Below are positions 15,277 through 32,000 of a stretch of 32,000 nt of DNA, one piece after another. Origin of the DNA: Geotalea daltonii FRC-32 (GTDB lineage Bacteria > Desulfobacterota > Desulfuromonadia > Geobacterales > Geobacteraceae); assembly GCF_000022265.1 (NCBI RefSeq), contig NC_011979.1:3450001-3482000 (forward strand), in the 5' to 3' direction. Numbering within the stretch: the stretch's first letter is position 1; each line of letters begins with the position of its first letter. A program made the position numbers and the translations under genes. Under the pieces are notes generated by a model, which did not search any database, was not told where the DNA came from, and saw only the letters and a list, made by a program, of their open reading frames with translations.

Positions 15277-16173
15277 ATGGCCATGGACATAACAAAACAC
15301 TACCCCTTTACCAGCAACTACCTGGACCTGAATGGCCTGGCCTACCACTACCTTGACGAAGGGAGCGGCGACCCGGTGGTCATGGTCCACGGCAATCCCT
15401 CCTGGTCCTTTTACTACCGCAACCTGGTCCTTGCCCTCAGGGACCGCTACCGGTGCATTGTCCCCGACCATATGGGCTGTGGCTTTTCGGACAAGCCGGG
15501 CGATGACCGCTACGAATATACCCTTCCACGGAGGGTTGACGACCTGGAGCGACTCATAGACCATCTTAAAGTGAATAAGAATATCACTCTGGTGGTCCAC
15601 GACTGGGGCGGGATGATCGGCATGGCCTATGCCGTGCGCCATCCGGAGCGGATCAAAAGGCTGGTAATCCTAAACACAGCAGCTTTCCATCTGCCCAAGG
15701 AAAAGCCATTTCCCCTGGCCCTGAAAATCTGTCGAGACACAATGCTTGGGACCCTGCTGGTCCGCGGTTTCAACGCCTTCAGCCTGGCCGCATCATTTGT
15801 CGGCTGCAAACGGAACCCCATGAATGCCGAGCTGCGGAAAGCCTATCAGGCCCCCTACGACAGCTGGCAGAACCGCATCGCCACCCTGCGCTTCGTTCAG
15901 GACATCCCCCTCGCCCCCGGTGACCGCAATTATGACATGGTCAGCAGCGTGGAATCCGGTCTGGAGCAGTTCCGCAACCTGCCCATGTCCATCTTCTGGG
16001 GAGAGCTTGACTTCGTCTTCGACCGCGCCTTTCTTGCCCAATGGAAGCGACGTTTTCCAGCTGCGGAAGTGCACAGTTACGGTGACGCGGGCCACTATAT
16101 CCTCGAGGATATGGGAAACGAGATCATTCCTCTCATTTCAGACTTCCTCAGCCGAACCGAGATAAAACCATGA
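15277..16173 (+). CDS. oleB: OleB, alpha/beta-hydrolase (haloalkane-dehalogenase-like) beta-lactone decarboxylase
   Basis: 298 aa. It has HGNPSWSFYYR and the nucleophile-elbow motif VVHDWGG, typical of the HLD-like fold. It sits between oleA and oleC, and its stop overlaps the oleC start (ATGA at 16170-16173). Confidence 0.88.
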   Translation: MAMDITKHYPFTSNYLDLNGLAYHYLDEGSGDPVVMVHGNPSWSFYYRNLVLALRDRYRCIVPDHMGCGFSDKPGDDRYEYTLPRRVDDLERLIDHLKVNKNITLVVHDWGGMIGMAYAVRHPERIKRLVILNTAAFHLPKEKPFPLALKICRDTMLGTLLVRGFNAFSLAASFVGCKRNPMNAELRKAYQAPYDSWQNRIATLRFVQDIPLAPGDRNYDMVSSVESGLEQFRNLPMSIFWGELDFVFDRAFLAQWKRRFPAAEVHSYGDAGHYILEDMGNEIIPLISDFLSRTEIKP

Positions 16174-17807: not shown

Positions 17808-18799
17808 AAGCTCTTGTTACCGGCGGTGGCGGGTTTCTCGGCAGCGCCATTGTCCGGCTGCTTATGACCAGGGGCGATGAGGTACGCAGCTTCTCCCGCA
17901 GTGAATACCCGGAGCTTGCACAACTGGGGGTGGAACAGGTGCAGGGGGATCTGGCCGATCAGGACTGCTTGATGGAAGCGGCCTCAGGATGCGACATCAT
18001 CTTCCATGTGGCGGCCCAGGCCGGCATCTGGGGAGATTACGCCGGCTATCACCGAGCCAACGTTACCGGCACGGAAAACATTATCGCCGCCTGCCGTGAG
18101 AACGGCATCAAGCACCTCGTCTACACCGGCTCTCCCAGCGTGATCTTTGACGGACGGGATGTGGAGGGGGGCGACGAGTCCCTCCCCTACCCGGTACATT
18201 TCGAAGCGAATTATCCGAAGACCAAGGCCCTTGCAGAGCAAATGGTCCTGGCGGCCAACGGCCCGGAGCTGGCTACCGTTTCTCTCCGGCCGCACCTGAT
18301 CTGGGGGCCCGGGGACAATCACCTGGTGCCGCGGATCATCGCCCGCGCCAAAGCAGGCAAGCTGCGCCGCATCGGCAACCGCCACTGTCTGGTGGACACG
18401 GTCTACGTGGACAACGCCGCCCAGGCCCATCTGCTCGCCGCCGACCGCCTCACCCATGACAGCCCCATAGGGGGCAAGTCCTACTTCATTTCCAACGGCC
18501 AGCCGATCCCCCTCTGGGAGATGGTCAATGCCATCCTTGACGCCGCAGGACTGCCGCCGGTGACGCGAACCATCCCGCCACAGGCCGCCTATGCCATAGG
18601 AGCGCTCTGCGAGCAACTATGGAAATTCCTCCCCATGAAAGGCGAGCCCCCCATGACCCGCTTTGTCGCCAAAGAGCTTTCCACCGCCCACTGGTTCGAC
18701 ATTTCCGCCGCCCGTCGTGATCTGGGTTATCAGCCGGAAATAAGTATTGCCGAAGGGCTGAAACGCCTGAAAACCTGGCTCTCCGAAAGGGAGGCGTAA
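17804..18799 (+). CDS. oleD: OleD, NAD(P)H-dependent short-chain dehydrogenase (3-beta-HSD / epimerase-dehydratase family), 2-alkyl-3-ketoalkanoate reductase
   Basis: 331 aa. It has the N-terminal Rossmann motif VTGGGGFLGSAIV, a YPKTK catalytic motif (YxxxK), and the typical position after oleC. Confidence 0.88.
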   Translation: MKALVTGGGGFLGSAIVRLLMTRGDEVRSFSRSEYPELAQLGVEQVQGDLADQDCLMEAASGCDIIFHVAAQAGIWGDYAGYHRANVTGTENIIAACRENGIKHLVYTGSPSVIFDGRDVEGGDESLPYPVHFEANYPKTKALAEQMVLAANGPELATVSLRPHLIWGPGDNHLVPRIIARAKAGKLRRIGNRHCLVDTVYVDNAAQAHLLAADRLTHDSPIGGKSYFISNGQPIPLWEMVNAILDAAGLPPVTRTIPPQAAYAIGALCEQLWKFLPMKGEPPMTRFVAKELSTAHWFDISAARRDLGYQPEISIAEGLKRLKTWLSEREA

Positions 18800-18804
18800 G
18801 ATCC

Positions 18805-19506
18805 ATGCCCCTTGCCCATGGAGAAGTGCATGTCTGTTTTTATTCCCTGGATGTTGAAAGTGCGGAACTGCAGCGACTTGAGCAGCTGTTGTCTGCCGAT
18901 GAGCTGGCACGGGCAAAACGGACCCTCAACCGGACGGTACGAAACAGGTTCATAGCCGGACGGGGGACTCTCCGCCGCATTCTCGCCCGATATCTGGAGA
19001 AAGAACCGGAGAGTGTGGTCTTTGCCGAAGGGGAACAGGGCAAACCGTATCTGGCCGACCGGGCTGAGCATCAAAGGCTCCGTTTCAACCTGACCCATAA
19101 GCATGAGCGGGCTGCTCTTGCCGTCAGCGGAGGCTCTGAGCTGGGAATAGACCTTGAAGAGCTGCAGGAGACCATTCCCTTTTGCAGGATGGCGGAACGT
19201 TTTTTTCTCTCAAAGGAAAGCGAGGAACTGTCGAGCCTGCCTCATGAACAGCAGCTGGCCGCTTTTTACCGCTGCTGGACCAGGAAAGAAGCCTATCTGA
19301 AAGGACTCGGCACCGGCCTGACCCGCCCGGCGAACAGTTTCGGCGTTTCTCTCCTCCCAGGCCAGCCACCAATCCTCGACGATCTACAGTATCCGGAGCT
19401 TGGCCGAAAATGGACTCTCCATGACATCGGCGTTCCGGTGGGCTACTGCGCAGCCCTGGCCATGGAAGGGAAGCCTGCTGCTTTAACCTGCTTTCCCTGG
19501 ACCTGA
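18805..19506 (+). CDS. pfaE: Sfp-type 4'-phosphopantetheinyl transferase (PfaE-like), presumably activating the four PfaA ACPs
   Basis: 233 aa. Motifs are GKPYL, FNLTH, GIDLEE and WTRKEAYLKGLGTG. The RBS GGGAGG lies upstream, and the gene starts 5 nt after the oleD stop. Confidence 0.85.
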   Translation: MPLAHGEVHVCFYSLDVESAELQRLEQLLSADELARAKRTLNRTVRNRFIAGRGTLRRILARYLEKEPESVVFAEGEQGKPYLADRAEHQRLRFNLTHKHERAALAVSGGSELGIDLEELQETIPFCRMAERFFLSKESEELSSLPHEQQLAAFYRCWTRKEAYLKGLGTGLTRPANSFGVSLLPGQPPILDDLQYPELGRKWTLHDIGVPVGYCAALAMEGKPAALTCFPWT

Positions 19507-19510
19507 CATT

Positions 19511-21079
19511 CTATTTCCCCCGCATCACATCCTCTATCTCAGCCGGCGCCGGGCGTTTGCTGAAGGCGTTTGTCCGCCTTGCCTCCGCCTCCATCTGCCC
19601 CAGGACCGATAGGAGATGATCCGCTGTGGTGATCCGGTAAAACCTGCCTATTTTCGATTCAAGACCCGAGATATCGCTTTTCCCGGGAAAGACGACCAGC
19701 CCGTACACCGGCAATTGGGGCAACCGTCCCTTCACCATGTTCATCAGGTTCATCACATAGTCACGCACCTGGTGATAGGGGTTTTCTCCCCAGTCCCCTT
19801 TAACTTCGACTGTTTGGTTACCGCTCCCCCGGCAGAGCCATTTGGAATTCTCCACCGAGCCTTCCGCTTCAATGGCGCCGAAGTAGCCCTTTGCCTCAAT
19901 GACAATCAGGCAGTCCTTGCTGATGACGATACAGTCGATAAAGCGGCTCCCCCTGTTGCCCGTTGCCACGTCGAACTGACTCACCACCCGCCAATGGCCG
20001 CTTTTGGCCTGGGGACTGTCGGCGACGATCCTGATCACCTGCTGTTCGAAAGCTGTGCCAGTCTTTGTACCGATGGCGCTGGAAAGGGTCTTGGAAGCCT
20101 CCACCTTGTCCCGCCCCACCGCCTTTTTATATTTCTCCACCTCTATCTGCAGCTGTTCCTTTTCAACCCTGGTCAGGTCAAGCTGTTCTTCAAATAGTTT
20201 GGACTGCCGGTTGTTTTCCTCTTCCAGATCCCTGATGATGCTCTCGGCAGCCTCGCGGTATTCCACCACATCCTTCAGCCTTTGCTCAAGCCCCCTGATA
20301 CGTCCGATGTAGGTTTCAAACTGCCTGCTGAACCGTAGTTGTTGATCCTCAATCTGACGCCCCTTCTCCTCCAGCTGGGCTACGTAAGTGTCGGCATCCT
20401 TGACCAACTCAGCCTCACGCTGCCGGGCATTGCGCAGCTCTATTCGTCTGATCTTTAGGAAAAGCTCCAGGAGCAGCCAGATGAATATCCCCCCCATGAG
20501 ACAGGAGGTCATGGTTGCCAGATATCGCCGCCACAGCTCGTTATCCCGGAAGGGATCATGCAACCATTGCCGGTAGTCTTCACTGAAAGAAGGAATGGTG
20601 CTGATGGAATAGACGCGCCCAATGATCTGGCCACTATGTCCGGCTTTGCCGTCCATCTGCTGCAGCAGCTGGAGAACGGATGAGGACGGTCTGCGGAGCA
20701 CTATATACGGATAGTTGAGCAGGTCTGTTGCATCAATGGGCTTATTTGGAATCAAGCCGGGACTTGTCCGAAAGAGAATGTTCTGCCCGCTGCAGTTTTC
20801 CTCGCCGGTCCTGCAGTCGGTTATCACCAGGGCGTAGATGCTGTAATTGCGATCCAGGAGCTCCTGCAGCTTGCCATGGTTTCCCTCCAGCAGAAGACTT
20901 GAGAGGAGGTTTGCATTCAGACCCATTCGGGCTTCCGCATGGACCTTGATCATGGTTTTGCCAAGGTAATCGGAAAAATTGCGGCCATTGAGGTAATTGG
21001 CCATGAGAACGGCAAGATAGAGGATGATGCAAAGCCTGATGCCGCTGTATGCCAGCTGTTTCAGCAACGCCTTCGACAT
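19511..21079 (-). CDS. Membrane-anchored coiled-coil protein with a C-terminal NERD (nuclease-related) domain
   Basis: 522 aa. Hydrophobic helices lie at about aa 13-29 and 188-209, flanking a roughly 160-aa loop. A heptad-rich E/K/R/Q segment spans about aa 212-325. The C-terminal NERD-like core is FIDCIVISKDCLIVIEAKGYFG. The gene is convergent with the PPTase gene, with 4 nt between the two stops. Confidence 0.7.
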   Translation of the reverse strand: MSKALLKQLAYSGIRLCIILYLAVLMANYLNGRNFSDYLGKTMIKVHAEARMGLNANLLSSLLLEGNHGKLQELLDRNYSIYALVITDCRTGEENCSGQNILFRTSPGLIPNKPIDATDLLNYPYIVLRRPSSSVLQLLQQMDGKAGHSGQIIGRVYSISTIPSFSEDYRQWLHDPFRDNELWRRYLATMTSCLMGGIFIWLLLELFLKIRRIELRNARQREAELVKDADTYVAQLEEKGRQIEDQQLRFSRQFETYIGRIRGLEQRLKDVVEYREAAESIIRDLEEENNRQSKLFEEQLDLTRVEKEQLQIEVEKYKKAVGRDKVEASKTLSSAIGTKTGTAFEQQVIRIVADSPQAKSGHWRVVSQFDVATGNRGSRFIDCIVISKDCLIVIEAKGYFGAIEAEGSVENSKWLCRGSGNQTVEVKGDWGENPYHQVRDYVMNLMNMVKGRLPQLPVYGLVVFPGKSDISGLESKIGRFYRITTADHLLSVLGQMEAEARRTNAFSKRPAPAEIEDVMRGK

Positions 21080-21154: not shown

Positions 21155-21194
21155 CAAATTAAAATCGCCGTGACGAAGGGTCCGCCACGGCGAA
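21155..21194 (-). terminator. Rho-independent terminator downstream of the OmcS-like gene
   Basis: The minus-strand RNA reads TCGCCGTG-GCGGACCCTTCGT-CACGGCGA. The 8-bp GC-rich stem can be extended by inner pairs and is followed directly by TTTTAATTT. It lies 27 nt after the stop at 21220-21222. Confidence 0.75.
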
Positions 21195-21219: not shown

Positions 21220-22443
21220 TCAATCCCGTGCATGGCACTTGTTGCACAACTGCCGCTGAAAGGTGGCAAATTGTGCCGGGTCCCGATTGTACATGGCTGC
21301 CTTGTACTCAGTTCTCAGCTTGCCGGTGGAATTTTCCCCTTCCTTCCCCTTGCCGCCTGCGTCAATGCCCGGGTATTCTCCCCCAACGGTGATAAAGGTC
21401 CCTTTCATATTCCACCTGCCAATGCCGTCCCAACCGGAGGCGTGGGCGCGATGGCAGCTAAGGCATGTCACCCGGTCGTCGGGATTGGGGCCGTTGCTGG
21501 AGGTAAGCTCCGCAGCCAGCTGTTGAGGATCGGTTGTTTCGGTTGTCTGGAACGGTACCAGTGAAGTGTAGGCATTGGCCTGGATGCCGCTCAGATCGCC
21601 AGACTTGATGTAATTGTTGTAGACTCCGGCAATGGGGCCGAGCTCTGCGTCGGATGGGTGGACATGGCTCATGCTGCTCCCCTGCAGGAATGCCTCATGG
21701 CAGTTGGCGCACCACTTGGACACCCCTTTGCCATAGGCGACCCGGGTATCCCTGCCACTTTCGGGGCGGTTGTACTCCTTGGGAGCGACGGCAATGGGGG
21801 GATCATGGGCAAAAACATGGCTGGTTCCCCCGGCTTGGTAACCCTTGCCTGCCAGGAGGCGATAGCTGCCGACAGCTCCATTGGCGGTGGGGACGGCACC
21901 ATATGAACCGGATTCGCCGATGGGATTTATGTCGGTGGCGATGGTGCCGTAAACATCCACCAGCCGGTAATTTCCATGGGGATCATGGCAGCTGATGCAA
22001 GAGAGTGACTGGGCGGGATAACTGCCACCTGGCGAGACATGAAGGGTGCTGTCCCCCACATAGCCATAGGCCGCGGCAACGATGTTGTGCCCATGCCTTT
22101 CACCGGGACTGCTCCCCCCGGTGCCGTTGGTATTGACCCAGCTGTAGTTTTTTTTCACGTAGGCGAAGTCTCCACCCGGAGTCATGGCTTTGGGTGCAAG
22201 CCCCCTGGCCGGGGCCGGCTCTGTGGCTATCTGGTGTGCCTGGGGGTTCGGAGCACCATGGCAGCGCAGACAGGTGGAGCTGGGATCAGGACCGAGAAGA
22301 GAGGTATAGTTGGTGTCTGCCCCCCTTGAGCCGTGGCAGCCTTCGCAGGCACCAGTGTGCCCTCCATGGAATTTTTCTGCCCAGCCGGAGCCTGCAGTGG
22401 TCAGGATCAAGGCAATTGTTGTCAGGATGCCCGTGATACCCAT
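21220..22443 (-). CDS. omcS: OmcS-family hexaheme c-type cytochrome (extracellular filament / nanowire-type subunit)
   Basis: 407 aa with a signal peptide (…TTAGSGWA/EK). The six CxxCH motifs are CEGCH, CLRCH, CISCH, CANCH, CLSCH and CNKCH. Long blocks match the G. sulfurreducens OmcS sequence as I recall it: FHGGxxxxCEGCH, MTPGGDF.YVKK.Y.W, GER.GHNIVA, SCHDPHG.YR, RVAYG.G.S.WCANCH, Y.KSGDL.G.QA.AY.SL.PF, CLSCHRAHASG and LCNKCHA.D at the C-terminus. Confidence 0.85.
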   Translation of the reverse strand: MGITGILTTIALILTTAGSGWAEKFHGGHTGACEGCHGSRGADTNYTSLLGPDPSSTCLRCHGAPNPQAHQIATEPAPARGLAPKAMTPGGDFAYVKKNYSWVNTNGTGGSSPGERHGHNIVAAAYGYVGDSTLHVSPGGSYPAQSLSCISCHDPHGNYRLVDVYGTIATDINPIGESGSYGAVPTANGAVGSYRLLAGKGYQAGGTSHVFAHDPPIAVAPKEYNRPESGRDTRVAYGKGVSKWCANCHEAFLQGSSMSHVHPSDAELGPIAGVYNNYIKSGDLSGIQANAYTSLVPFQTTETTDPQQLAAELTSSNGPNPDDRVTCLSCHRAHASGWDGIGRWNMKGTFITVGGEYPGIDAGGKGKEGENSTGKLRTEYKAAMYNRDPAQFATFQRQLCNKCHARD

Positions 22444-23493: not shown

Positions 23494-24396
23494 TTATTTG
23501 ACTGCTTCGAACAACTGTATCCTGCTGTTATCCCGGTCGGCGATGAAGACACTCCCCGAAGGTCCGAGACATATCTGCCCCGGATAATAAAGCAGGCCGT
23601 TTTTTCTCCCCATGCCCAACTGCCTGGCAAGGAAAGAGCCATCCTGGCCGAAGCTCACCAGGGCTCCGCCGTTCTGGTCGACCACCAGGATATTCCCCCG
23701 TGCATCAACGGTAAGGTAACCCGGAAATGATAGGTACTCCCGCAGGTTGTTCACCAATGGGGCAAATTCCTTGGCGGCACCGGAAGCGGCATAGATAATG
23801 CCGTTGGTGCTGTCGGCAAGATAAATGGTTCCTTTGCCGTCAACCGCCAAATCGACCATGAACCCGTAGCCTTTGGGGAAAGGCGCCTGGCTTAAGAATT
23901 TCCCCCCCTGGTCCAGCACCAGCACGCGCTCGGCAAAGATGTCCAGGAGATAGAAGCGCCCTTCGCTGTCGATTTTAAAGGCAGAGGCGATAAAGGCAGG
24001 GGCTGGAACACCCTGAGGGTCAAGATAGCCCTGGAAGGCGCCAGCCTGGCTGATGCGCACGATGCGTCGGGATTTGGCATCAAGGGCATAGATGTCTCCC
24101 TTGGCGGACAACTGGACCCGCACCGGATTGGCCAACTGGGCAGGCCTGAGTTCCGCCCCCCCTTTGACGCTGTCCCCGTCCAGCGTATAGCGCACCAGGC
24201 GGCCATTGCCCGAATCAGCAACCACCAGTGACGAAGCATCGCACGCAACCCCTTCCGGGTTCTTCAGCTCCACCCCTTTCTCGTCGCCGTAGATGGTGGT
24301 CAGATGTTTGATCTTTACCATATCAGCAGCAAAGGACAGGGCTGGAAGGAGCGATATCATGGCCAGAGCCATGGAGAAATATCTGCAGGATATCAT
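23494..24396 (-). CDS. Periplasmic NHL-repeat beta-propeller protein
   Basis: The preferred start is ATG 24396 (RBS GAGGTG), giving the signal peptide MISCRYFSMALAMISLLPALSFA. Repeated NHL-type blades are visible (NGRLVRY, SRRIVRIS, ERVLVLDQGGKF, NGIIYAA, NILVVDQNGGALVSF, NSRIQLFE). There is no CxxCH motif. The start lies 5 nt after the stop of the 16-heme cytochrome gene. Confidence 0.8.
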   Translation of the reverse strand: MISCRYFSMALAMISLLPALSFAADMVKIKHLTTIYGDEKGVELKNPEGVACDASSLVVADSGNGRLVRYTLDGDSVKGGAELRPAQLANPVRVQLSAKGDIYALDAKSRRIVRISQAGAFQGYLDPQGVPAPAFIASAFKIDSEGRFYLLDIFAERVLVLDQGGKFLSQAPFPKGYGFMVDLAVDGKGTIYLADSTNGIIYAASGAAKEFAPLVNNLREYLSFPGYLTVDARGNILVVDQNGGALVSFGQDGSFLARQLGMGRKNGLLYYPGQICLGPSGSVFIADRDNSRIQLFEAVK

Positions 24397-24401
24397 GGTC
24401 T

Positions 24402-25685
24402 TCACCTCTTGAATTGTTCGTGGCACTGGGTGCACAGCTCCGTTGGTGTGGCGAACGGAATGAAGTGCTTGTATTCCGTGCCGTGGGACCGGTGGCAACT
24501 CAGGCATTGCAAGGTGATGTTCTTGTCCCGCGGGTCCTTGAACTTTTCCCCGATGGGATGGGTGGAATGCTTCTGCCAGTCATGGCAGGTGCCGCATAAC
24601 TCGATGATCGAAGGCTGAGAGGTAAGGAACGTGTTGTCCGACGAATGTGGATCATGACAGGACATGCAGTCCCCGTCCTGGATCGGCGGATGCTTGGTCA
24701 GGGACTGCTCCTGGCGCTTGATGGTATCCTTGTGGCACCGGCCGCAGACAGCGATCATATTGTCTTTCAACAGCCCCTTTTTCGGTGCAGCATGGGGATT
24801 GTGGCAGGTAAGACATCCATCCCTGCTCAAAAGCGGCCAGTGCATCTGTTTCTTACCGAAGGTCTTGTTGACCATCTCGTTATGGCATCCCTTGCACAGC
24901 TCATAACCTGGCCGTTTGGTTTTAAGGGGAGTGGCCGAGCCGGATTCCCCATGGCACTGATTGCATTGCTTGTTGGCCACCGGCTTGTGCACGGCATTGA
25001 ACAAGATGCCAGGATTGTTCGAACCGTGGGGGTCATGACAGGAGGTGCAGCGGGCGGTCGCCACCGGGTAGTTCATATGCTGTTTGGCAAAGAGGGGGCG
25101 GTCGGTCTTGTGACAGCCGATGCACAGAGCCGGCACATCGTTTTTCAGCAGATAGCCGTATTTGGCTGAAACGTGGGGATCGTGGCAGTTGAGACAGCCC
25201 TTTGCCACGGGTGCGTGCTTGAATTTTATCTTGACCAGCATGCCGGCCAGATCCTTGTGGCAATCCAGGCACAGTTCATTGCCAGCCTTGAGAAGATTGT
25301 TCTTGTTGGCTGCAGAATGGGGATCATGGCACTTGACGCATTGCCCCTCTGCAACCACCCTGTGGACACTTTTGTCGGTGTCCTGGCCAAGCCTTGCGTG
25401 GCAGGAATAGCAGATATCCTTTGGATCCGAAGCCAGAAGCTTGCCATGGGATGAGGTATGGGGACTGTGGCAGCCGGTACATTCACCCGCTTTGACCGGC
25501 GTATGGATCACCGGCTTTTTCAGCTTTTCCTGGAAATCATTGTGGCAATTGAGGCAGAGCTTGCCGTTGGCGCCCGGTTTCAGCTTGTACTTCAGGGCAT
25601 TGTCCTGGGCTCCCTGCGATAGGGTGGCCGATCCCAGGAAAAAGAGCGTCAACAGGCAGAAAGCCGATGCTGATAGATATTTCAT
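24402..25685 (-). CDS. Periplasmic multiheme c-type cytochrome with 16 CxxCH motifs
   Basis: The preferred start is ATG 25685 (RBS AAGGAG), giving the signal peptide MKYLSASAFCLLTLFFLGSATLSQGA. I counted 16 CxxCH by eye. Most are arranged as paired CxxCH ... CxxCHxPH modules (doubled-CXXCH type). Confidence 0.9.
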   Translation of the reverse strand: MKYLSASAFCLLTLFFLGSATLSQGAQDNALKYKLKPGANGKLCLNCHNDFQEKLKKPVIHTPVKAGECTGCHSPHTSSHGKLLASDPKDICYSCHARLGQDTDKSVHRVVAEGQCVKCHDPHSAANKNNLLKAGNELCLDCHKDLAGMLVKIKFKHAPVAKGCLNCHDPHVSAKYGYLLKNDVPALCIGCHKTDRPLFAKQHMNYPVATARCTSCHDPHGSNNPGILFNAVHKPVANKQCNQCHGESGSATPLKTKRPGYELCKGCHNEMVNKTFGKKQMHWPLLSRDGCLTCHNPHAAPKKGLLKDNMIAVCGRCHKDTIKRQEQSLTKHPPIQDGDCMSCHDPHSSDNTFLTSQPSIIELCGTCHDWQKHSTHPIGEKFKDPRDKNITLQCLSCHRSHGTEYKHFIPFATPTELCTQCHEQFKR

Positions 25686-25695
25686 GATAACTCCT

Positions 25696-27669
25696 TTACT
25701 GCTTGCCGACGATGTGGCATTCGTCGCACGACCTGGCCGCGAAGGGAGCGTGTATCGTCTCTTTGAAAAATTTCGGGTCCTGTGAAGCATGAGGGGTGTG
25801 GCAGGTCATGCAGTTCATATCTGCAGCGGCAATACCCAGGTGCCCCTTGTTGAAGGCCGCGTCGCCGGTATCATGACACTGGGCGCACAGCTCCTGTACC
25901 GGCTGGCCGGTCAGTGCCCGATAGGGGGCGAAATGCGGTTTATGGCACTGCTGGCAGTCCTTTGCCGCCGGTGAATGTACCTTCTCCTTGCCGATCTTTT
26001 CCTTCAGCGACTTATGGCAGGTAAGACAAAGGTCGGGCGCCTGGGCGAGAAGAAGCTTGTTCAGGGATGACTTGTGCGGACTGTGACACTTGGTGCAATC
26101 CCCTGCCAGCAGAGGCTGATGCTTGCTTTTCGCCTCCACCAGTCCTTTCTTCAGATCGATATGACATTCCATGCAGAGCAGATCCTGCTTCTTCACCAGC
26201 ATCCCGGCTGTATTGCTACCGTGGGTATCATGGCAGGTGAGACATTCGCCGCTGTTAAACGGCATGTGGTTTGAGCCTCCCACCGATTCCTTCATCAGGT
26301 CGCCATGGCACTGGCTGCACAATTTGGCTCCCGAAGCCTTGAGCAGTTTACCTTCATCGGAGCTGTGCGCCTTATGGCAGGAGGTGCAGGTACCATCGGC
26401 GACCGGTCGGTGAGTATAACTTTTCTTGAACCTTGTTTCGGCCTCCGGATGGCAGCCATAGCAGATGTTGTCCATTCGGTCCTTGAACATGCCGGGCATA
26501 TTGGAGCCATGGGGATTATGACAGGAACTGCATTCACCACCGGCAAAGGGAGGATGGACAGTCTTGTTTTTCATGGCATCTTTCGTCCTGGCATGGCAGG
26601 GATAGCACAGCTCCGCATCCTTGGCCGACAGCAGCCCCCTGTTTTTGGCAGCGTGGTGCGTGTGGCAGGATAGACAGCCTTTCCCTTTGCCGACTGCTGC
26701 ATGGGGATAGGCCATGGCAGCAGCTTTATTCTTATGGCAACCGAAGCAGAGTTTGTTGCCGTCAGCGGCAAGAAGCCGTGGATAGTCCGAGGTGTGGGGG
26801 TTATGACAGGAGATGCAATCTCCCCCTTTGAAAGGCGCGTGAATGATGTTCCCATCCCCCTTCAGACCCTTCTCGTCATGGCACTGATAGCAGAGCGCAC
26901 TCCCCTTCCGGGTAACGGCAAAGGGTTTGGCTGAGGTGACGGCATCGTGACAGCCGTCACAGCCTCCGGAGGCAACCGGATTATGGGTGCTCCCCCGCAA
27001 AAGTTTTGCCTGGTCTGAAGAATGGGGAGTGTGGCAGATGGTGCAGCGTTTGGTTTCAACAGGATAGTTGCCGTGGGCCTTTTTAAAGCCTGTCTTGCCG
27101 CTATCATGGCAACCCAGGCAAAGCTTTGGTTCGGCACTGGCGAGGAGAAACTTTTCGTCGGAGCTGTGGGAGTAATGGCAGGCCTTGCAGCCTTGCTTGG
27201 CCAGCACCCCATGGACGAATTTCTTCTGGTAATCGTCCTTCTTATGACATTGGAAACAGATCTCATTGCCTTCTGCCTTCAGCAGATGACTGCCGTTGGA
27301 GGCATGGGGGTTATGGCAGAGGGTGCACTTGCCGGTTTTCAGGGCCGTATGTACATTGGGCTTGGTCAAGGCCGTCTTTACGTTGTTGTGGCATTTGAAG
27401 CAGAGGGCGTTCCCCGTCTCCTTCAAAAGCAGCTTCGGTACCACCCCGTGGCGCAGGTGGCAATCCTCGCATCTCTTCTCCTTGACCACCGCATGAACAT
27501 CCTTCATGCCCAGGTATTTGTCGGCAAACTTCTTATGGCAGTCCAGGCATTCCTTACGGGCGAATGTCCGCGCCGCCTCTGATGGCCTGGGTGAAAGGAG
27601 TATCACGGAGCTGCACAGGATCAGCAGCAGAATGATCAGTAATTTATTTTCAGTGAATGAATGAAACAT
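25696..27669 (-). CDS. Periplasmic giant multiheme c-type cytochrome with 26 CxxCH motifs
   Basis: The preferred start is ATG 27669 (RBS GGAG), giving MFHSFTENKLLIILLLILCSSVILL. Alternative starts lie at 27720 and 27717. I counted 26 CxxCH by eye, in the same paired-module grammar as the downstream 16-heme gene. The stop lies 10 nt before the next start. Confidence 0.9.
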   Translation of the reverse strand: MFHSFTENKLLIILLLILCSSVILLSPRPSEAARTFARKECLDCHKKFADKYLGMKDVHAVVKEKRCEDCHLRHGVVPKLLLKETGNALCFKCHNNVKTALTKPNVHTALKTGKCTLCHNPHASNGSHLLKAEGNEICFQCHKKDDYQKKFVHGVLAKQGCKACHYSHSSDEKFLLASAEPKLCLGCHDSGKTGFKKAHGNYPVETKRCTICHTPHSSDQAKLLRGSTHNPVASGGCDGCHDAVTSAKPFAVTRKGSALCYQCHDEKGLKGDGNIIHAPFKGGDCISCHNPHTSDYPRLLAADGNKLCFGCHKNKAAAMAYPHAAVGKGKGCLSCHTHHAAKNRGLLSAKDAELCYPCHARTKDAMKNKTVHPPFAGGECSSCHNPHGSNMPGMFKDRMDNICYGCHPEAETRFKKSYTHRPVADGTCTSCHKAHSSDEGKLLKASGAKLCSQCHGDLMKESVGGSNHMPFNSGECLTCHDTHGSNTAGMLVKKQDLLCMECHIDLKKGLVEAKSKHQPLLAGDCTKCHSPHKSSLNKLLLAQAPDLCLTCHKSLKEKIGKEKVHSPAAKDCQQCHKPHFAPYRALTGQPVQELCAQCHDTGDAAFNKGHLGIAAADMNCMTCHTPHASQDPKFFKETIHAPFAARSCDECHIVGKQ

Positions 27670-27773
27670 ATTTTTCTCCAACAGGAAACCCTGGATAATA
27701 AGGCTCCTGATTAGCATCATTCTCTGCCATGGATCCCTCTAGATATTTCGGTATGCACTCCGCTGACAGCCTG

Positions 27774-29516
27774 CTAATTGCCCAGGTCGGTGATATAGAC
27801 CTGCACCTTATAGGCTTCCCGAAGCTTTTGACCCCAATCTTCCACGGACTTGTTGAGCTTCTGGTTAAAGACCTCCTTGGTGATCGACTGCTTCACCTGT
27901 TCCAGAGGCTGCGGTTTTGCAGGGATCACTTCCTGCACCTGTATCACATAGACAAAACCCTCCGGCGTCTCGAACAACCTGTACTCGCCGGGCTTAGCCG
28001 CAGCAATTGCTTCCTGCATTTTTTCGGGCAGGCTCTTGCGGGTTACCGGAGTTTGCGAGAAGGACATCAGCCCTTCCGTATCACCGGGCACCAAACCTTC
28101 AGCGTTTGCCTGCAGCCATTGGTATTCGGTTCCTTTTTGCAATTTCTCCATGGCAGCTTCGGCAAAATCCTTCCTGGTGAAGGCGAGTCCCCGGAGCTTC
28201 AGCATCTCCGGCAGTGAAAACTCGTCGATTTCCGCATTGTAATGGGCTTTGATCTCCTCATCGGTTACCTTGATTTCAGAGGCTACCACTTTCTGGATGA
28301 ACATGCCGAACAGCAGCGAGTCCCTGAAATCCTTGATCCTGTTTTTGTAACTTTCAGTTTTATCCAGGCCGAGCTTTTTTGCCTCCATAGGATAAAGTCT
28401 GGCGTAGAAAATATCGTATAGCGCCGGCATTTTCTGCTCATTGATACGCTTGCCCTTGGCCGCTTCCTTGACCCCATGGAAAAACTTCTGCTTGAGCATT
28501 TCGCCCAGGTCGGCAACGGTGATCGGCTTATCCCCTTTGATGGTGGCGATGACCCGCTTATCCTTGAGCAACTTGTCAAAACCGGGCTTGGCTGACTCGA
28601 AATCCAGCTTGTCGAGTAACTTCCTGTCTATCTTGGCGTATTTCTTCACCAACATACCGTTATATTCGGTAAGCACCTGGAGCTGTTTCAGGGCCAGGGC
28701 CTGTTCCCGTGCGGCTTCCCTGGCCTCCATATCGTCAGCGGGATAGCGGATATCTTCCAGCTTGAGGATGGTGTAAGCGGGGCCCACCTGAACAACCGGG
28801 CTAATGCCGCCAACCCTGAGACTGGAGACAATGTGGGCAACCTGGGGAAGCAGTTCCTTTGCCTTGACGAATTCCCCTTCCTTGACGCCGGTGGCCTTGC
28901 CCGATTCGATCAGGCTGTTTGCCAGCTCGTCGAAATTGCCCCCGGCCTGGACTGCCCTGGCCAGTTCCTTGGCATCATCCTCCTTGTCAAAACGAACAGA
29001 TTTAACCTTAAGCTCCTTGACCGCTTCCTTGTAAAACCTCTCCGTATCTGCTTCTGCCGGCTTCAGGTCCTTGATTTGCTGCTCCTTCAATTCCTCCTTG
29101 ATGGCCATCCTGGGGAAATCTTCCAGTTTCTCCTTCACCTCGGGAAGGTCTGCAAGGCCCATGTTTTCTGCTTCCTGAACGATCAACTTGCTGTTGATCA
29201 AGCGATTGAGCACGATGTTATAGTCTTTCTTTCCCGCCGATTCATCTTCCCCGGCACGCTGATGTAAAGCTGCCAGTGACTGATTGAATTCCTCCATGGT
29301 CACCACGTCGTCCCCCACCGTCGCCACCGGCACGGAAGCGAACTTTGGCGAAAGCAGCGGTATTTTCAGGGTAATCCGGGACTCAGCCACCGGTGAGGCG
29401 TTTTCTTTTAATTCGTCGCCGGTTTTTGGCGCAACCGGACTCGGTTCAGCAGCGATCGACAGTGTCCCGAACAAAAGGCTGACCAGAAATGCTTTCATCA
29501 TCATGGTTCGTTTCAT
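27774..29516 (-). CDS. SurA-like periplasmic chaperone / peptidyl-prolyl isomerase with two parvulin-like domains
   Basis: The preferred start is ATG 29516 (RBS AGGGAGAG), giving the signal peptide MKRTMMMKAFLVSLLFGTLSIAA. Parvulin-like blocks are AVQAGGNFDELANS...LRVGGISPVVQVGPAYTILKLEDI and MEKLQKGTEYQWL...AKPGEYRLFETPEGFVYVIQVQEV. The N- and C-terminal chaperone-like helical regions are K/E-rich. Confidence 0.75.
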   Translation of the reverse strand: MKRTMMMKAFLVSLLFGTLSIAAEPSPVAPKTGDELKENASPVAESRITLKIPLLSPKFASVPVATVGDDVVTMEEFNQSLAALHQRAGEDESAGKKDYNIVLNRLINSKLIVQEAENMGLADLPEVKEKLEDFPRMAIKEELKEQQIKDLKPAEADTERFYKEAVKELKVKSVRFDKEDDAKELARAVQAGGNFDELANSLIESGKATGVKEGEFVKAKELLPQVAHIVSSLRVGGISPVVQVGPAYTILKLEDIRYPADDMEAREAAREQALALKQLQVLTEYNGMLVKKYAKIDRKLLDKLDFESAKPGFDKLLKDKRVIATIKGDKPITVADLGEMLKQKFFHGVKEAAKGKRINEQKMPALYDIFYARLYPMEAKKLGLDKTESYKNRIKDFRDSLLFGMFIQKVVASEIKVTDEEIKAHYNAEIDEFSLPEMLKLRGLAFTRKDFAEAAMEKLQKGTEYQWLQANAEGLVPGDTEGLMSFSQTPVTRKSLPEKMQEAIAAAKPGEYRLFETPEGFVYVIQVQEVIPAKPQPLEQVKQSITKEVFNQKLNKSVEDWGQKLREAYKVQVYITDLGN

Positions 29517-29539
29517 AACTCTCCCTTTATCCCCTGCTG

Positions 29540-29725
29540 TCATTTAGTTTCCATCCGGAAAGGGTTCTTTTCTGCCCTGGCGGCGTCAATCTGCGGGCTT
29601 ACTTGTGCGACGTACCGATGTACGTCTCCGCGCAAGCCCTTGATTTCCTTGCCAGAACAAAAAATCCCCTCTTTCCGAATCGGAAACCATTAGTTTCTCA
29701 TCCGGAGTTTCCGGATGGAAACCAT
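29540..29725 (-). promoter_or_regulatory. Repeat-rich, highly structured intergenic region (leader of the chaperone gene / internal operon regulator)
   Basis: Three palindromic GTTTCC-N4/5-GGAAA(C/G) sites lie at 29547-29562, 29671-29687 and 29707-29722. A perfect 8-bp/3-nt-loop hairpin spans 29699-29717. A long imperfect hairpin runs from GGGCTT to AAGCCC (29595-29639) with an inner 7-bp stem GACGTAC/GTACGTC. A direct repeat CATT(T)AGTTT starts at 29541, 29688 and 29723. Confidence 0.5.
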
Positions 29726-30844
29726 TTAGTTTTTCCCGATCATGCTCACTATTGCCGCAGCCATCTGGGAGGTCATTTCTCCTGCGGTATTGACTCTGCC
29801 CAGATCGAAAAAAAATACCCCGTCGTCACCTTCGTTATAACTGTGGGAGGTCCATACTACTTCCCGGCTTTTCCTGTCCAGCAAGGTCAACGAGAAATCA
29901 ACCTTCGGCGTCCCCATGCCCCCCTGGTAGTCCTGAAACTCCTGAACTTCACCTGTCAGGACAAGGTCGGCGTTGAGATCATTGAAAAGGACATCGGCAT
30001 TGGCCAGGGATATCCCCCCTTCGAGAATGATCCTGAATTTGAGGAATGCCTGCCTCACCACTCCTGGTTCAATGATAATATGTTTATTATCTTTTGCCAA
30101 TTCTTCAACAAAGTGCAAGGCAACTATTTCTCCGGCGCTTTTCCTGCCACTTTTGTTAATGAAGGGAATAATGGCAATGGTACGCTGCTGTTGCATATCC
30201 AAGCTCGGCGAATGATAGACCGTTTTGGGCCGGAACTTCCTCATCCACTTCCGGCCCTTTTCTTCCCGGCCACTGAAGGCACCGGCAAGACGAACCGCAA
30301 TTGGATCCAGCGCCTTTTCAAGGAGGTGGTCAGGTTTATGGATCTCTCCCATCCCCAAAAGACCCGGAGCATCGTCACCGGCGAGGGCAGCCGAAGTCAT
30401 GCCGATAATTTTCGCCTCCGGGGCGGTGGAAACCAGACGACAGGAGATTGCCACCTTTGGCGGCGCCGCTTCGCTGCTCATTTCCATGGATGAAATGAGA
30501 ACGGCTGCGGCACCGGTCTCTGTTTTCAGTGCCACCAATGTGTCCCTGTCGATGCTGCCGGTGTGACGCAGGCGATGCCTGGCCAGGAATTGGTCGGTTC
30601 CCTTTTCATCCAGTACTCCAACACCCTGCTCCCGCATTTTTTCCGCCAGCGATTGCCGGATACTTTTCAAAGGTACGGCCACGCCGCTCAGGTTTTCCAC
30701 CGGGAGGACAACTATGAATGGTTTTTTTCCTTCCGGAATGGCCGCTGATTTGACCGTGCCGGTTCCGGCGGCACAACCGCCTGCGCCTGAAAGCAGTGCC
30801 AGCAACAGAGCCAGTTTAGTTGAAAAGTTTATCAAGGAGCTCAT
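29726..30844 (-). CDS. Lipoprotein with two tandem LpoB/CsgG/DUF799-like alpha/beta modules
   Basis: 372 aa with signal peptide and lipobox LLSGAGGC. The two halves (about aa 40-160 and 225-345) each follow the same pattern: a hydrophobic strand, then P(V/F).N, then V(L)(I/T)(S/G), then a strand, as in FIVVLPVENLSG...AAVLISSME and IAIIPFINKSG...DLVLTGEVQEF...VVWTS. The start overlaps the upstream gene by 29 nt. Confidence 0.7.
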   Translation of the reverse strand: MSSLINFSTKLALLLALLSGAGGCAAGTGTVKSAAIPEGKKPFIVVLPVENLSGVAVPLKSIRQSLAEKMREQGVGVLDEKGTDQFLARHRLRHTGSIDRDTLVALKTETGAAAVLISSMEMSSEAAPPKVAISCRLVSTAPEAKIIGMTSAALAGDDAPGLLGMGEIHKPDHLLEKALDPIAVRLAGAFSGREEKGRKWMRKFRPKTVYHSPSLDMQQQRTIAIIPFINKSGRKSAGEIVALHFVEELAKDNKHIIIEPGVVRQAFLKFRIILEGGISLANADVLFNDLNADLVLTGEVQEFQDYQGGMGTPKVDFSLTLLDRKSREVVWTSHSYNEGDDGVFFFDLGRVNTAGEMTSQMAAAIVSMIGKN

Positions 30845-31382
30845 TCACTGCCTTTTCCGTTATCCTGTTCATTGGTTCTCCCCCTCCCCCCAAAAGACGT
30901 TCGGACATGCCGATCCCCCCCTGGGTCGACGAGGCGTTCCACACCACTTTGCCACTCTGGGCCTCGATTGCCTGGACACCGAGAGAAATGACGTTGGCTC
31001 CGGAACTTCCGGATCGTACCTCGCCGTACTCCCTGACCACACCAGTGATAACCGCATCAACCTTGATAATACCGGCGAGCTTGATTATGTCCTCGGGGGA
31101 CGGAGCAGCGGCGTTAGTTATGCCGGCACGGGACAAGCCCCGCAGTACCTCCCCCGCCGGCATCACATATATGGCGCCGGTTGCCATAAGCATGTTGGAA
31201 AAGACATCCCTCACCCTTTCCGCCGCCTGATTGTCGCGGGTGAGATTGGCAAAAGGCAGAACGGCAACGGTTCTTACCGAGCCAAAATCCATGTTGGCGT
31301 CCCGATAGACGTCGGCTGTTGTCCCACAACCGGCTGCAAAAATCAGGCAGATCAGAGTCATACTGATACGTATTCGTTTCAT
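30816..31382 (-). CDS. DUF799/GNA1162-like (LpoB-fold) lipoprotein
   Basis: The preferred start is ATG 31382, giving MKRIRISMTLICLIFAAGC (lipobox). Alternative starts lie at 31403 and 31400. The body reads VAVLPFANLTRD...VDAVITGVVREYG...ISLGVQAIEAQSGKVVWNAS, which matches the single-module version of the neighbouring lipoprotein. Confidence 0.7.
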   Translation of the reverse strand: MKRIRISMTLICLIFAAGCGTTADVYRDANMDFGSVRTVAVLPFANLTRDNQAAERVRDVFSNMLMATGAIYVMPAGEVLRGLSRAGITNAAAPSPEDIIKLAGIIKVDAVITGVVREYGEVRSGSSGANVISLGVQAIEAQSGKVVWNASSTQGGIGMSERLLGGGGEPMNRITEKAVNELLDKLFN

Positions 31383-31430
31383 CACACATCCTGGTTGCAT
31401 CATTTTTGTTTTACTTCTCCCTTCATAAAA

Positions 31431-32000
31431 TCAGAAAAAGATCCGGTAGGTAGCGTTGAAGATCTTTGAATCGAGCGACTGCCTGTGAGACGTGGAGCTG
31501 GTAAAAGAGTAACTCAGGTCAAGGAGGCTTTTACTGGTTATTTTCCAGGAAAGATTCGGAGAGATCAGCCTTTCCTTTGACCGCTCGAGACTGCGCAGGC
31601 TCTCATTGTAGGCAAAGCCGAACTGGATGGCTCCATCGGGAAACGGGGACCAGTTGACCCCGTAGTTCATCAAGGTATCGAAGGTACTGTTCTGCTCAAC
31701 CACCCCGATAGAGCCGAACAGGTACATGGCCGGAAACGGGCGGAAAGAAGCGTTGAATTCTCCCCGTTGCTGAAACGGATTCTGGTTCTGCGCCATGGCC
31801 AGAGAGGAAATGGTCTTGTTCAGGGTATAGTTGATGTTCATGCTCAGGGTAGGGTGCGGCACGATGTTGGCGCCGAAGACCATGCTGTAATCGTCCTCTT
31901 TTACCCCGGTTTCGGTAGTGACGTAGGTAGCCCCTCCGGACAGGTTGACGCTCACCCCCTTGTACAGGTCCGCATGATTATGGAGATAGATGGAGTTGGT
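31431..32000 (-). CDS. Outer-membrane beta-barrel protein, 3' part (5' end lies beyond the window)
   Basis: The frame is open from the window edge (…TNSIYLHNHADLYKGVSVNLSGG…). Beta-strand-like segments with alternating hydrophobic/polar residues and aromatic girdles are visible. The C-terminal signature is ...NATYRIFF, ending in Phe. Confidence 0.65.
   Translation of the reverse strand, partial: TNSIYLHNHADLYKGVSVNLSGGATYVTTETGVKEDDYSMVFGANIVPHPTLSMNINYTLNKTISSLAMAQNQNPFQQRGEFNASFRPFPAMYLFGSIGVVEQNSTFDTLMNYGVNWSPFPDGAIQFGFAYNESLRSLERSKERLISPNLSWKITSKSLLDLSYSFTSSTSHRQSLDSKIFNATYRIFF

What the first reader, a model, noticed from the sequence alone, without database searches (positions are those of the whole stretch)
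29726..32000. Three copies of an LpoB/CsgG/DUF799-like module in two overlapping lipoprotein genes behind a beta-barrel gene: putative outer-membrane conduit
The 195-aa lipoprotein has one copy and the 372-aa lipoprotein has two tandem copies of the same roughly 120-aa pattern. The pattern is (I/V)A(V/I)(L/I)PF.N.., then V(L/I)TG.V.E(F/Y), then a short strand, then (V/I)VW..S. Both proteins have lipoboxes. The genes overlap by 29 nt and follow a gene for a barrel protein ending in ...YRIFF. This fold family includes CsgG (the curli secretion pore) and small lipoproteins that often occur in three-gene envelope clusters. Linkage to a filament-forming cytochrome suggests a lipoprotein-gated pore for a folded or partially folded heme protein.
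Basis: inference. Interest (0 to 1): 0.65.

Follow-up and report, generated by a model that had tools for sequence, protein, structure and literature searches.

The report
OscE/F/G cytochrome-nanowire secretion channel genes

Summary
On the minus strand a barrel gene ending in YRIFF is followed by a 195-aa lipoprotein, then a 372-aa lipoprotein that overlaps it by 29 nt. The small protein and the C-terminal half of the large one are clearly homologous (BLASTP 1e-9; profile-profile 3e-16). The N-terminal half is a diverged third copy (profile-profile 3e-6; the AlphaFold model shows two alpha/beta modules).

Extending the contig and comparing it with G. sulfurreducens shows full-length orthology:
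- OscE: 40% identity, 5e-167
- OscF: 57%, 2e-83
- OscG: 43%, 2e-102
- OscD: 44%, 1e-135

The gene order is also the same: NHL, OmcS-like, D, E, F, G, H (prolyl isomerase), I, J. That order recurs in about 80 genomes from several phyla. Shen et al. 2025 named this the omcS-companion (osc) cluster and assigned OscEFG to OmcS secretion.

The closest solved relative of the lipoprotein module is PelC, the 12-subunit lipoprotein ring under the PelB barrel. It is closer than CsgG or LpoB. The barrel is predicted to have 28 strands with a discoidin-like insert.

Verdict: real, correctly interpreted and already known. What may be new is the PelBC-like architecture.

The parts
31431..32000 (-). C-terminal 189 codons (about the last nine or ten strands) of the OscE-like outer-membrane beta-barrel. 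The full protein is 739 aa and continues beyond the window. It ends in the aromatic motif YRIFF.
   Evidence: ORF and translation. Full length recovered on L001. 40% identity, E=5e-167 to G. sulfurreducens OscE (L089). AlphaFold2 pLDDT 87.8 with 28 strands.
30816..31403 (-). OscF-like lipoprotein with one PelC/GNA1162-type module (residues about 31-163, nt 30915-31313). The likely start is the ATG at 31382 (188 aa). The lipobox Cys is at residue 26 of the 195-aa reading.
   Evidence: Pfam GNA1162-like, 31.5 bits. 57% identity, E=2e-83 to OscF. PelC 9H80_C E=2.8e-5 and GNA1162 E=1.2e-4 by sequence.
29726..30844 (-). OscG-like lipoprotein with two tandem PelC-type modules. The N-module is at nt 30335-30727 and the C-module at nt 29810-30232, joined by a helix.
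   Evidence: 43% identity, E=2e-102 to OscG. AlphaFold2 model. Foldseek PelC E=1.8e-8, TM (target) 0.74-0.76. hhalign between modules.
30816..30844 (-). 29-nt overlap of the F stop with the G start. It probably provides translational coupling.
   Evidence: The same 29-nt overlap occurs in G. sulfurreducens (L089 20055..20083). It also occurs in 35 of 63 related loci, with 5 more at 26 nt.
27774..29543 (-). OscH-like SurA/PpiC-type peptidyl-prolyl isomerase chaperone. The likely start is at 29516.
   Evidence: Pfam Rotamase_2 1.8e-34 and SurA_N domains. A PPIase lies downstream of G in 61 of 75 loci with room.
25696..27720 (-). OscI-like multihaem cytochrome with 26 CXXCH motifs.
   Evidence: Pfam Paired_CXXCH_1 5e-156. 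Motif count. Conserved position.
24402..25790 (-). OscJ-like multihaem cytochrome with 16 CXXCH motifs. The likely start is at 25685.
23494..24507 (-). NHL-repeat beta-propeller protein, the gene that follows J in most related loci.
   Evidence: Pfam NHL 3e-16. Synteny.
21220..22443 (-). OmcS-family hexahaem cytochrome (407 aa) at the end of the gene row. It lacks the His16 position conserved in OmcS, OmcT and OscC.
   Evidence: PDB 6EF8 OmcS E=4.2e-91, full length. Alignment A3.
21165..21193 (-). Terminator-like hairpin (13 pairs followed by a T-rich tail), 27 nt after the OmcS-like stop codon. It is the likely end of the minus-strand gene row.
   Evidence: The total number of terminator-like sites in the region is not above the shuffle expectation, so this rests on position and stem length alone.

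Best explanation
The finding covers the OscE (C-terminal part), OscF and OscG orthologues of an omcS-companion (osc) gene cluster.

**Proposed components**
- OscE is a very large outer-membrane beta-barrel, predicted to have 28 strands. A discoidin-like domain is inserted between strands 11 and 12. By strand parity that is an extracellular loop.
- OscF carries one PelC-type alpha/beta module and OscG carries two. Both are anchored to the inner leaflet of the outer membrane by their lipid.

**Inferred mechanism**
1. The F and G modules assemble into a periplasmic ring or vestibule under the barrel, as the 12 PelC subunits do under PelB.
2. OmcS-type hexahaem subunits are exported by Sec and loaded with haem in the periplasm.
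3. The neighbouring SurA/PpiC-type chaperone OscH handles them and hands them to this channel.
4. They cross the outer membrane and polymerise outside the cell.
5. The conserved 29-nt F/G overlap couples their translation, which would fix their ratio.

**Shown here:** orthology, synteny, fold and module repetition.
**Taken from the literature:** involvement of OscEFG in OmcS secretion.
**Inferred:** ring formation, stoichiometry and the state of the cargo.
For: **Orthology to G. sulfurreducens subsp. ethanolicus (L089)**
- G: 43%, 2e-102
- F: 57%, 2e-83
- E: 40%, 5e-167
- D: 44%, 1e-135

**Gene order and naming.** The order is OmcS, OmcT, B, C, D, E, F, G, with the same 29-nt F/G overlap. PMC13194489 gives oscC=GSU2501, oscI=GSU2495 and oscJ=GSU2494. 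It also reports Shen et al. 2025 as assigning OscE/F/G to secretion, OscH to folding and OscD to morphology. GSU2497 is annotated 'lipoprotein' and GSU2499 'hypothetical'.

**Synteny in 80 genome loci from several phyla**
- F directly upstream of G in 73 of 75 loci with room
- E and F both present in 66 of 70
- PPIase downstream in 61 of 75
- An OmcS-like gene present in 57 of 58

**Cargo.** The in-window cytochrome matches OmcS (6EF8) at 4e-91.

**Fold.** Foldseek on G places PelC first (1.8e-8, including PelBC 9H80), followed by GNA1162, LpoB and CsgG. F matches PelC by sequence. PelBC is one barrel plus a ring of 12 PelC subunits (PMC12141448).

**Barrel.** The model has pLDDT 87.8 and 28 strands. 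Among the solved barrels listed, the 26-strand MtrB has the highest query TM-score, 0.30.
Against:
- The barrel has no periplasmic TPR or stalk domain. In PelB that domain is needed to hold the PelC ring, so assembly must differ.
- The PelC Asp119 that contacts the barrel rim is not conserved in F.
- About half of the G homologues lack the lipobox Cys, so lipid anchoring of G is not a family-wide requirement.
- One locus (L032) carries an F-G pair with no barrel or OmcS gene within 10 kb.
- The primary paper could not be read. What it says is known only from a citing paper and from my memory of its abstract.
Confidence: 0.75

Rival explanations
1. The barrel is the sheath of a porin-cytochrome electron conduit of the MtrAB or Geobacter Pcc type. 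OscI and/or OscJ would thread through OscE to pass electrons to surface OmcS filaments. F and G would be accessory lipoproteins that stabilise the complex, not a secretion vestibule.
For: - Two large multihaem cytochromes (26 and 16 CXXCH motifs) are conserved directly downstream in nearly all loci.
- Among the listed Foldseek matches to the barrel model, MtrB of the Mtr complex (6R2Q_B) has the highest query TM-score, 0.30.
- A 28-strand barrel is in the size class of the 26-strand MtrB.
Against: - All TM-scores are low (0.2-0.3), so the match says only 'large barrel'.
- The closest solved relative of F and G is an export-ring lipoprotein, PelC.
- The literature as cited assigns OscEFG to OmcS secretion.
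- The two roles do not exclude each other.
Confidence: 0.13
2. E, F and G export a polysaccharide or other non-protein polymer, as PelBC does. That polymer would anchor or organise the cytochrome filaments, and any OmcS secretion defect would be indirect.
For: - The closest solved homologue, PelC, belongs to an exopolysaccharide exporter.
- The barrel carries a galactose-binding (F5/8 type C) domain in 19 of 36 homologues.
- In G. sulfurreducens, glycosyltransferase genes lie upstream of the cluster.
Against: - No polysaccharide synthase or polymerase gene is conserved within the cluster across the 80 loci. The conserved partners are cytochromes, a prolyl isomerase and beta-propellers.
- The barrel has 28 strands, not the 16 strands of the PelB/BcsC/PgaA type, and it has no TPR domain.
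Confidence: 0.07
3. F and G are generic envelope lipoproteins of the LpoB/GNA1162 kind, for example peptidoglycan-synthase activators, and lie next to cytochrome genes by chance.
For: Pfam LpoB hit in G (36 bits) and GNA1162-like hit in F.
Against: - The LpoB hit covers only profile positions 99-143 of 147.
- The NCBIfam LpoB equivalog scores 17 bits against a cutoff of 110.
- Linkage to the barrel, the PPIase and an OmcS-like gene is nearly invariant across phyla.
Confidence: 0.03

Closest known systems
OscE/OscF/OscG of the omcS-companion (osc) cluster, Geobacter sulfurreducens (GSU2499/2498/2497; Shen et al. 2025, Cell Chem Biol 32:239)
   Same: - Full-length sequence homology at 40-57% identity.
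- The same gene order: D, E, F, G, H, I, J.
- The same 29-nt F/G overlap.
- The same linkage to OmcS-family hexahaem cytochromes.
   Different: - This cluster lacks the OscB (spermine-synthase-like) and OscC genes between the OmcS-like gene and D.
- It has one OmcS-like gene upstream where G. sulfurreducens has the OmcS/OmcT pair.
- It adds a Sel1-repeat gene, a small ORF and a second OmcS-like gene lacking His16 at the downstream end.
PelC ring on the PelB barrel (PelBC exopolysaccharide exporter; PDB 5T0Z, 5T10, 5T11, 9H80)
   Same: - The module fold (Foldseek 1.8e-8, target TM 0.74-0.76).
- Detectable sequence similarity (F vs PelC, 2.8e-5).
- An N-terminal lipid anchor.
- Encoded next to an outer-membrane barrel.
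   Different: - Three modules are spread over two proteins, where PelC is a homo-dodecamer of a single module.
- The partner barrel is predicted to have 28 strands, has no TPR or stalk and is unrelated to PelB.
- The presumed cargo is a haem protein, not a cationic polysaccharide.
- The PelC D-loop Asp is not conserved.
CsgG curli secretion pore (PDB 4UV2/4UV3)
   Same: A distantly related alpha/beta lipoprotein fold (Foldseek 2.7e-4) and a role in secreting a fibre subunit across the outer membrane.
   Different: - From memory of the CsgG structure, CsgG forms the membrane pore itself from hairpins of nine subunits. Here a separate barrel gene supplies the pore.
- There is no Pfam CsgG hit for the window proteins.
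- Target TM is only about 0.37.
LpoB (activator of PBP1b) and GNA1162/DUF799 lipoproteins
   Same: Pfam-level similarity, with LpoB in G and GNA1162-like in F, and the same fold class.
   Different: - The NCBIfam LpoB equivalog is far below its cutoff.
- The genomic context is completely different.
- There is no sign of the long disordered linker that, from memory, LpoB has.
MtrB/MtrA porin-cytochrome complex (PDB 6R2Q)
   Same: A very large outer-membrane barrel (26 strands against 28 predicted) encoded with multihaem cytochromes.
   Different: Only a generic barrel resemblance (TM 0.30), and the Mtr system has no PelC-like lipoproteins.

Membership tests
Osc (omcS-companion) cluster, OscE/F/G | Full-length sequence homology to G. 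sulfurreducens OscE, OscF and OscG | tested here: met
   BLASTP against L089 gave E 40% (5e-167), F 57% (2e-83) and G 43% (2e-102). The gene-name mapping is interpolated from oscC=GSU2501 and oscI=GSU2495.
Osc (omcS-companion) cluster, OscE/F/G | Gene order beta-propeller (D), barrel (E), F, G, prolyl isomerase (H), multihaem I and J | tested here: met
   Window plus L001. The same order is seen in L089 and in most of 80 loci.
Osc (omcS-companion) cluster, OscE/F/G | Linkage to an OmcS-family hexahaem cytochrome | tested here: met
   The 407-aa protein matches 6EF8 at 4.2e-91. The 430-aa paralogue on L001 has six CXXCH motifs and keeps His16.
Osc (omcS-companion) cluster, OscE/F/G | Required for secretion of OmcS filaments | not testable with these tools
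   This needs genetics. It is reported for G. sulfurreducens by Shen et al. 2025, as cited in PMC13194489.
PelC / GNA1162-like lipoproteins (Pfam PF05643) | Pfam score above the gathering threshold | tested here: met
   F scores 31.5 bits against a cutoff of 25.9. G scores only 15.5 bits for this family, so it is met for F only.
PelC / GNA1162-like lipoproteins (Pfam PF05643) | PelC-type alpha/beta fold | tested here: met
   Foldseek of the G model against 5T0Z, 5T10 and 9H80 gave E 1.8e-8 to 3.4e-8 and target TM 0.68-0.76. The model has a mean pLDDT of 73.8.
PelC / GNA1162-like lipoproteins (Pfam PF05643) | Partner barrel of the PelB type (16 strands with a periplasmic TPR/stalk that nucleates the ring) | tested here: not met
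   The barrel model has 28 strands and starts directly after the signal peptide. It has no TPR hit and no Pfam hit of any kind.
PelC / GNA1162-like lipoproteins (Pfam PF05643) | Dodecameric ring assembly | not testable with these tools
   No multimer prediction or experiment was available.
CsgG (Pfam PF03783) | Pfam CsgG match and self-contained transmembrane hairpins that form the pore | tested here: not met
   No CsgG hit at E<0.1 for the window's F or G. Foldseek target TM is about 0.37. The G model shows no long hairpin.
LpoB (TIGR02722 equivalog) | Score above the equivalog cutoff | tested here: not met
   17.1 bits against a cutoff of 110.55. The Pfam LpoB hit covers only profile positions 99-143.

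The most novel reading that the evidence does not exclude
OscF and OscG together build a hetero-oligomeric PelC-type ring under a 28-strand barrel. For example, four F plus four G would give 12 modules, matching the PelC dodecamer. The discoidin-like extracellular insert of the barrel would then dock or nucleate the emerging cytochrome filament. Together this would define an outer-membrane protein-secretion machine that is mechanistically related to the PelBC polysaccharide exporter. I could not check whether Shen et al. 2025 already describe this PelC relationship.
Probability: 0.3. Interest if true: 0.6.

Novelty: already known. Interest (0 to 1): 0.3.

Why it matters
How a folded, haem-loaded cytochrome crosses the outer membrane and polymerises into a conductive filament is central to extracellular electron transfer. 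The osc cluster is the current answer for OmcS.

This locus adds another orthologue. More usefully, it gives a structural handle: the lipoprotein modules are PelC-like and the barrel is unusually large. That suggests concrete stoichiometries and interfaces to test.

It does not open a new question. The system and its wide distribution were published in 2025.

Tried and rejected
- **Primary paper.** Shen et al. 2025 is not held in the library, whether requested by PubMed id or by PMC11845295. A search for 'OscEFG' together with 'nanowire' found nothing. A looser search for the Osc gene names returned only rice genes.
- **Rfam.** A scan of the whole window found no RNA family, so no riboswitch was detected in the window.
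- **Promoter and terminator scan.** Counts were not above the shuffle expectation. I kept only the long hairpin after the OmcS-like gene.
- **Foldseek on the barrel model.** It gave only generic large-barrel matches with TM 0.2-0.3, so no specific barrel family could be assigned.
- **Family libraries.** NCBIfam has no model for E or F, and for G only a sub-threshold LpoB match. Pfam has no model for E.
- **Genome scan.** It did not return G. sulfurreducens itself. I reached that locus indirectly: from the PDB OmcS sequence to a protein search, then through OmcS (which stopped inside OscF) and OmcT (which reached OscG).
- **Rejected readings.** LpoB and CsgG membership were considered and rejected (see the membership tests). 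The plus-strand ORFs at 29603..30493 and 30714..31469 were treated as antisense shadows of the conserved minus-strand genes.
Full report
**1. What is in the sequence**

On the minus strand the window ends with a row of genes:
- An open frame running in from beyond base 32000 and stopping at 31431 (…NATYRIFF).
- A 195-aa ORF (30816..31403).
- A 372-aa ORF (29726..30844).
- A 589-aa SurA/PpiC-type prolyl isomerase (27774..29543).
- Two multihaem cytochromes of 674 and 462 aa, with 26 and 16 CXXCH motifs.
- An NHL-repeat protein, a Sel1-repeat protein and a small ORF.
- A 407-aa hexahaem cytochrome (21220..22443), followed by a long terminator-like hairpin.

The two lipoprotein ORFs overlap by exactly 29 nt. 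Both start with a signal peptide followed by a Cys in a relaxed lipobox. Pfam places the 195-aa protein in GNA1162-like/DUF799, above its threshold. It gives the 372-aa protein an LpoB hit with two stretches.

**2. Is the three-fold repeat real?**

- The 195-aa protein (F) and the C-terminal half of the 372-aa protein (G) align over 132 residues. BLASTP gives E=1e-9 and z=16.6 against shuffles.
- The N-terminal half of G is only marginal as a single sequence, with z=3.8.
- With family alignments the relation becomes clear:
  - F vs G-C: E=3e-16
  - F vs G-N: E=3e-6
  - G-N vs G-C: E=3e-6, over 136 colinear columns
- The consensus of 23 homologues shows the same landmarks in both halves of G: hydrophobic strand-P..N.S, VLIT, PK(I/V), (I/V)LW and GDD.
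- The AlphaFold2 model of G (pLDDT 73.8) has two similar alpha/beta modules joined by a helix.

The caveat is that the literal motif is degenerate in the N-terminal copy of this particular protein.

**3. Context beyond the window**

An exact-sequence look-up of G found a 42-kb public contig that continues past base 32000 (L001). Upstream of F it carries, in order:
- A response regulator and a histidine kinase.
- An NHL protein.
- A 430-aa hexahaem OmcS-like cytochrome.
- A 476-aa lipoprotein with a YncE/lactonase-type beta-propeller.
- The full 739-aa barrel.

**4. Identification**

The in-window hexahaem protein matches the OmcS filament subunit (PDB 6EF8) over its full length at E=4e-91. I used the OmcS sequence to reach the Geobacter loci. 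The G. sulfurreducens subsp. ethanolicus chromosome (L089) shows this order:

OmcS, OmcT, a 1017-aa protein, an OmcS-like 437-aa protein, a 492-aa beta-propeller, a 725-aa protein with no Pfam hit, a 199-aa GNA1162/LpoB-like protein, and a 392-aa protein.

The last two overlap by 29 nt, as in the window.

| Window protein | G. sulfurreducens counterpart | Identity | E-value |
|---|---|---|---|
| Beta-propeller | 492 aa (OscD) | 44% | 1e-135 |
| Barrel | 725 aa (OscE) | 40% | 5e-167 |
| F | 199 aa (OscF) | 57% | 2e-83 |
| G | 392 aa (OscG) | 43% | 2e-102 |

PMC13194489 calls this region the osc (omcS-companion) operon and gives oscC=GSU2501, oscI=GSU2495 and oscJ=GSU2494. Citing Shen et al. 2025, it states that OscH is proposed to act in OmcS nanowire folding, OscE/F/G in secretion and OscD in morphology. 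By gene order the barrel is OscE (GSU2499, annotated 'hypothetical'), F is OscF and G is OscG (GSU2497, annotated 'lipoprotein'). I could not read the primary paper. My memory of its abstract, which speaks of 'channel-like OscEFG' and a 'widespread and ancient' machinery, agrees with the citing paper.

**5. Distribution**

A protein search found hundreds of G homologues. A scan of one genome per species returned 80 loci in Thermodesulfobacteriota, Nitrospirota, Desulfuromonadales/Geobacteraceae, Myxococcota, Acidobacteriota, Rokubacteria and others. The usual order is NHL, OmcS, D, E, F, G, H, I, J, NHL. Among loci with enough flanking sequence:
- F lies directly upstream of G in 73 of 75.
- E and F are both present in 66 of 70.
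- A PPIase follows G in 61 of 75.
- An OmcS-like gene is present in 57 of 58.

The 29-nt F/G overlap is kept in 35 of 63 loci, with 26 nt in 5 more. That explains the conserved N-terminus of G (M-x-S-S-T-x-F) and points to translational coupling. F nearly always has a lipobox Cys (59 of 63). G has one in only about half of the loci.

**6. Fold and closest solved relatives**

Foldseek on the G model ranks the hits as follows:
- PelC first: 5T0Z from G. metallireducens, the 5T10/5T11 dodecamer and the PelBC complex 9H80, with E about 2e-8 and target TM 0.68-0.76.
- Then GNA1162, CT253, FlgT and LpoB.
- Then CsgG, with E about 3e-4 and target TM about 0.37.

F matches P. aeruginosa PelC by sequence alone (E=2.8e-5, nearly full length), and also GNA1162. 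In PelBC, twelve PelC lipoproteins form a periplasmic ring mounted on a single 16-strand PelB barrel. A flexible Gly-rich 'D-loop' touches the barrel rim (PMC12141448). That loop aligns with the RSGSSGAN loop of F, but the Asp is not conserved.

**7. The barrel**

The AlphaFold2 model (36-sequence alignment, pLDDT 87.8) has 11 strands, then an inserted domain at residues 262-434, then 17 more strands, for 28 in total. From strand parity, with both termini assumed periplasmic as is usual, the insert lies in an extracellular loop. This placement is an inference.

Nineteen of 36 homologues match the F5/8 type C (galactose-binding) domain there. Foldseek finds only generic large barrels. These include TonB-dependent receptors, MtrB and the PapC/FimD ushers, all at TM 0.2-0.3.

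A textbook geometric estimate gives a backbone diameter of about 5 nm for 28 strands. That is only a rough indication that a folded protein domain could pass. It is not a measurement.

**8. Mechanism**

The best-supported reading is an outer-membrane export channel for OmcS-type cytochrome subunits. OscE forms the pore, and the PelC-type modules of OscF and OscG form a periplasmic ring or vestibule. The SurA/PpiC-type OscH delivers the cargo.

- Shown here: orthology, synteny, fold, module repetition and conserved gene overlap.
- From the literature: the secretion role.
- Inferred: ring assembly, stoichiometry and the folding state of the cargo.

Points against a simple PelBC copy:
- The barrel is unrelated to PelB and has no TPR or stalk.
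- The D-loop Asp is missing.
- The lipid anchor of G is not conserved across the family.

Three rivals are scored separately in the report: a porin-cytochrome electron conduit that uses OscI/J, a polysaccharide exporter, and generic LpoB-like lipoproteins. The last is effectively excluded by synteny and by the failed LpoB equivalog test.

**9. Verdict**

Its interpretation is supported, with the correction that PelC is the nearest analogue, not CsgG. The system is already known, because the osc cluster, its OscEFG channel and its wide distribution were published in 2025. This locus is another orthologue with a slightly different accessory gene set.

The possibly new residue is the explicit PelBC-like architecture: three modules per F+G pair, a 28-strand barrel and a surface discoidin domain. 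I could not check this against the primary paper.

Noticed in passing
window 21220-22443 (-), residues about 33-45: The in-window OmcS homologue reads CEGCHGSRGA where OmcS, OmcT, OscC and the upstream 430-aa paralogue read CEGCHTMHNS. It therefore lacks the His16 position and also has a 14-residue deletion just after it. From memory of the OmcS filament structures, His16 is the ligand that coordinates haem 5 of the neighbouring subunit. This paralogue may not polymerise in the OmcS manner. It does have an extra His at mature position 5.
   Followed up: partly
window 220-19506 (+): A large lipid or hydrocarbon biosynthesis cluster. One giant PKS/PUFA-synthase-like protein (KS-AT-ACPx3-KR-DH) was scanned with Pfam. 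A second, 2342-aa protein was judged from its sequence only. They are followed by a KAS III/thiolase-like protein, an alpha/beta hydrolase, an AMP-ligase, a 3-beta-HSD/epimerase-family reductase and a phosphopantetheinyl transferase. From memory, the four middle genes look like oleABCD, so this may be a pfa-plus-ole polyolefin pathway.
   Followed up: partly
window 29544-29725 (spacer between G and the prolyl isomerase gene): Two exact TTTCC-N4-GGAAA palindromes at 29548-29561 and 29708-29721, against 0.06 expected by chance. A near-copy lies at about 29673-29686. Each sits next to a GAAACTAAATG-like word. They could be protein-binding sites or small hairpins. Conservation in related loci was not checked.
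   Followed up: partly
window 30816-30844; L089 20055-20083; many loci: The 29-nt overlap between the OscF stop and the OscG start is conserved across phyla, in 35 of 63 loci with 26 nt in 5 more. It fixes the first residues of OscG (M-x-S-S-T-x-F-x-x-K) and suggests translational coupling.
   Followed up: yes
L001 7195-9414 (barrel residues about 262-434, outside the window): The OscE-like barrel carries an inserted F5/8 type C (galactose-binding, discoidin-like) domain between predicted strands 11 and 12. It is detectable by Pfam in 19 of 36 homologues, though not in this one.
   Followed up: partly
L032 9848-11621: A Deltaproteobacteria MAG has an OscF/OscG-like pair, again with a 29-nt overlap, next to gyrase genes and a two-component system. 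There is no OscE-like barrel, OmcS-like gene or prolyl isomerase within 10 kb, although other multihaem cytochrome genes lie about 4 kb away.
   Followed up: partly
Alignment A1 and loci L006-L085: About half of the OscG homologues have no lipobox Cys and instead carry a plain signal peptide, for example ...LSGAAWA. OscF keeps its Cys in 59 of 63 loci. Some OscG homologues also carry an extra N-terminal domain.
   Followed up: partly
window 19511-21079 (-): A 522-aa protein with a long coiled-coil-like region and a C-terminal NERD (nuclease-related) domain. It sits between the lipid cluster and the cytochrome gene row.
   Followed up: no
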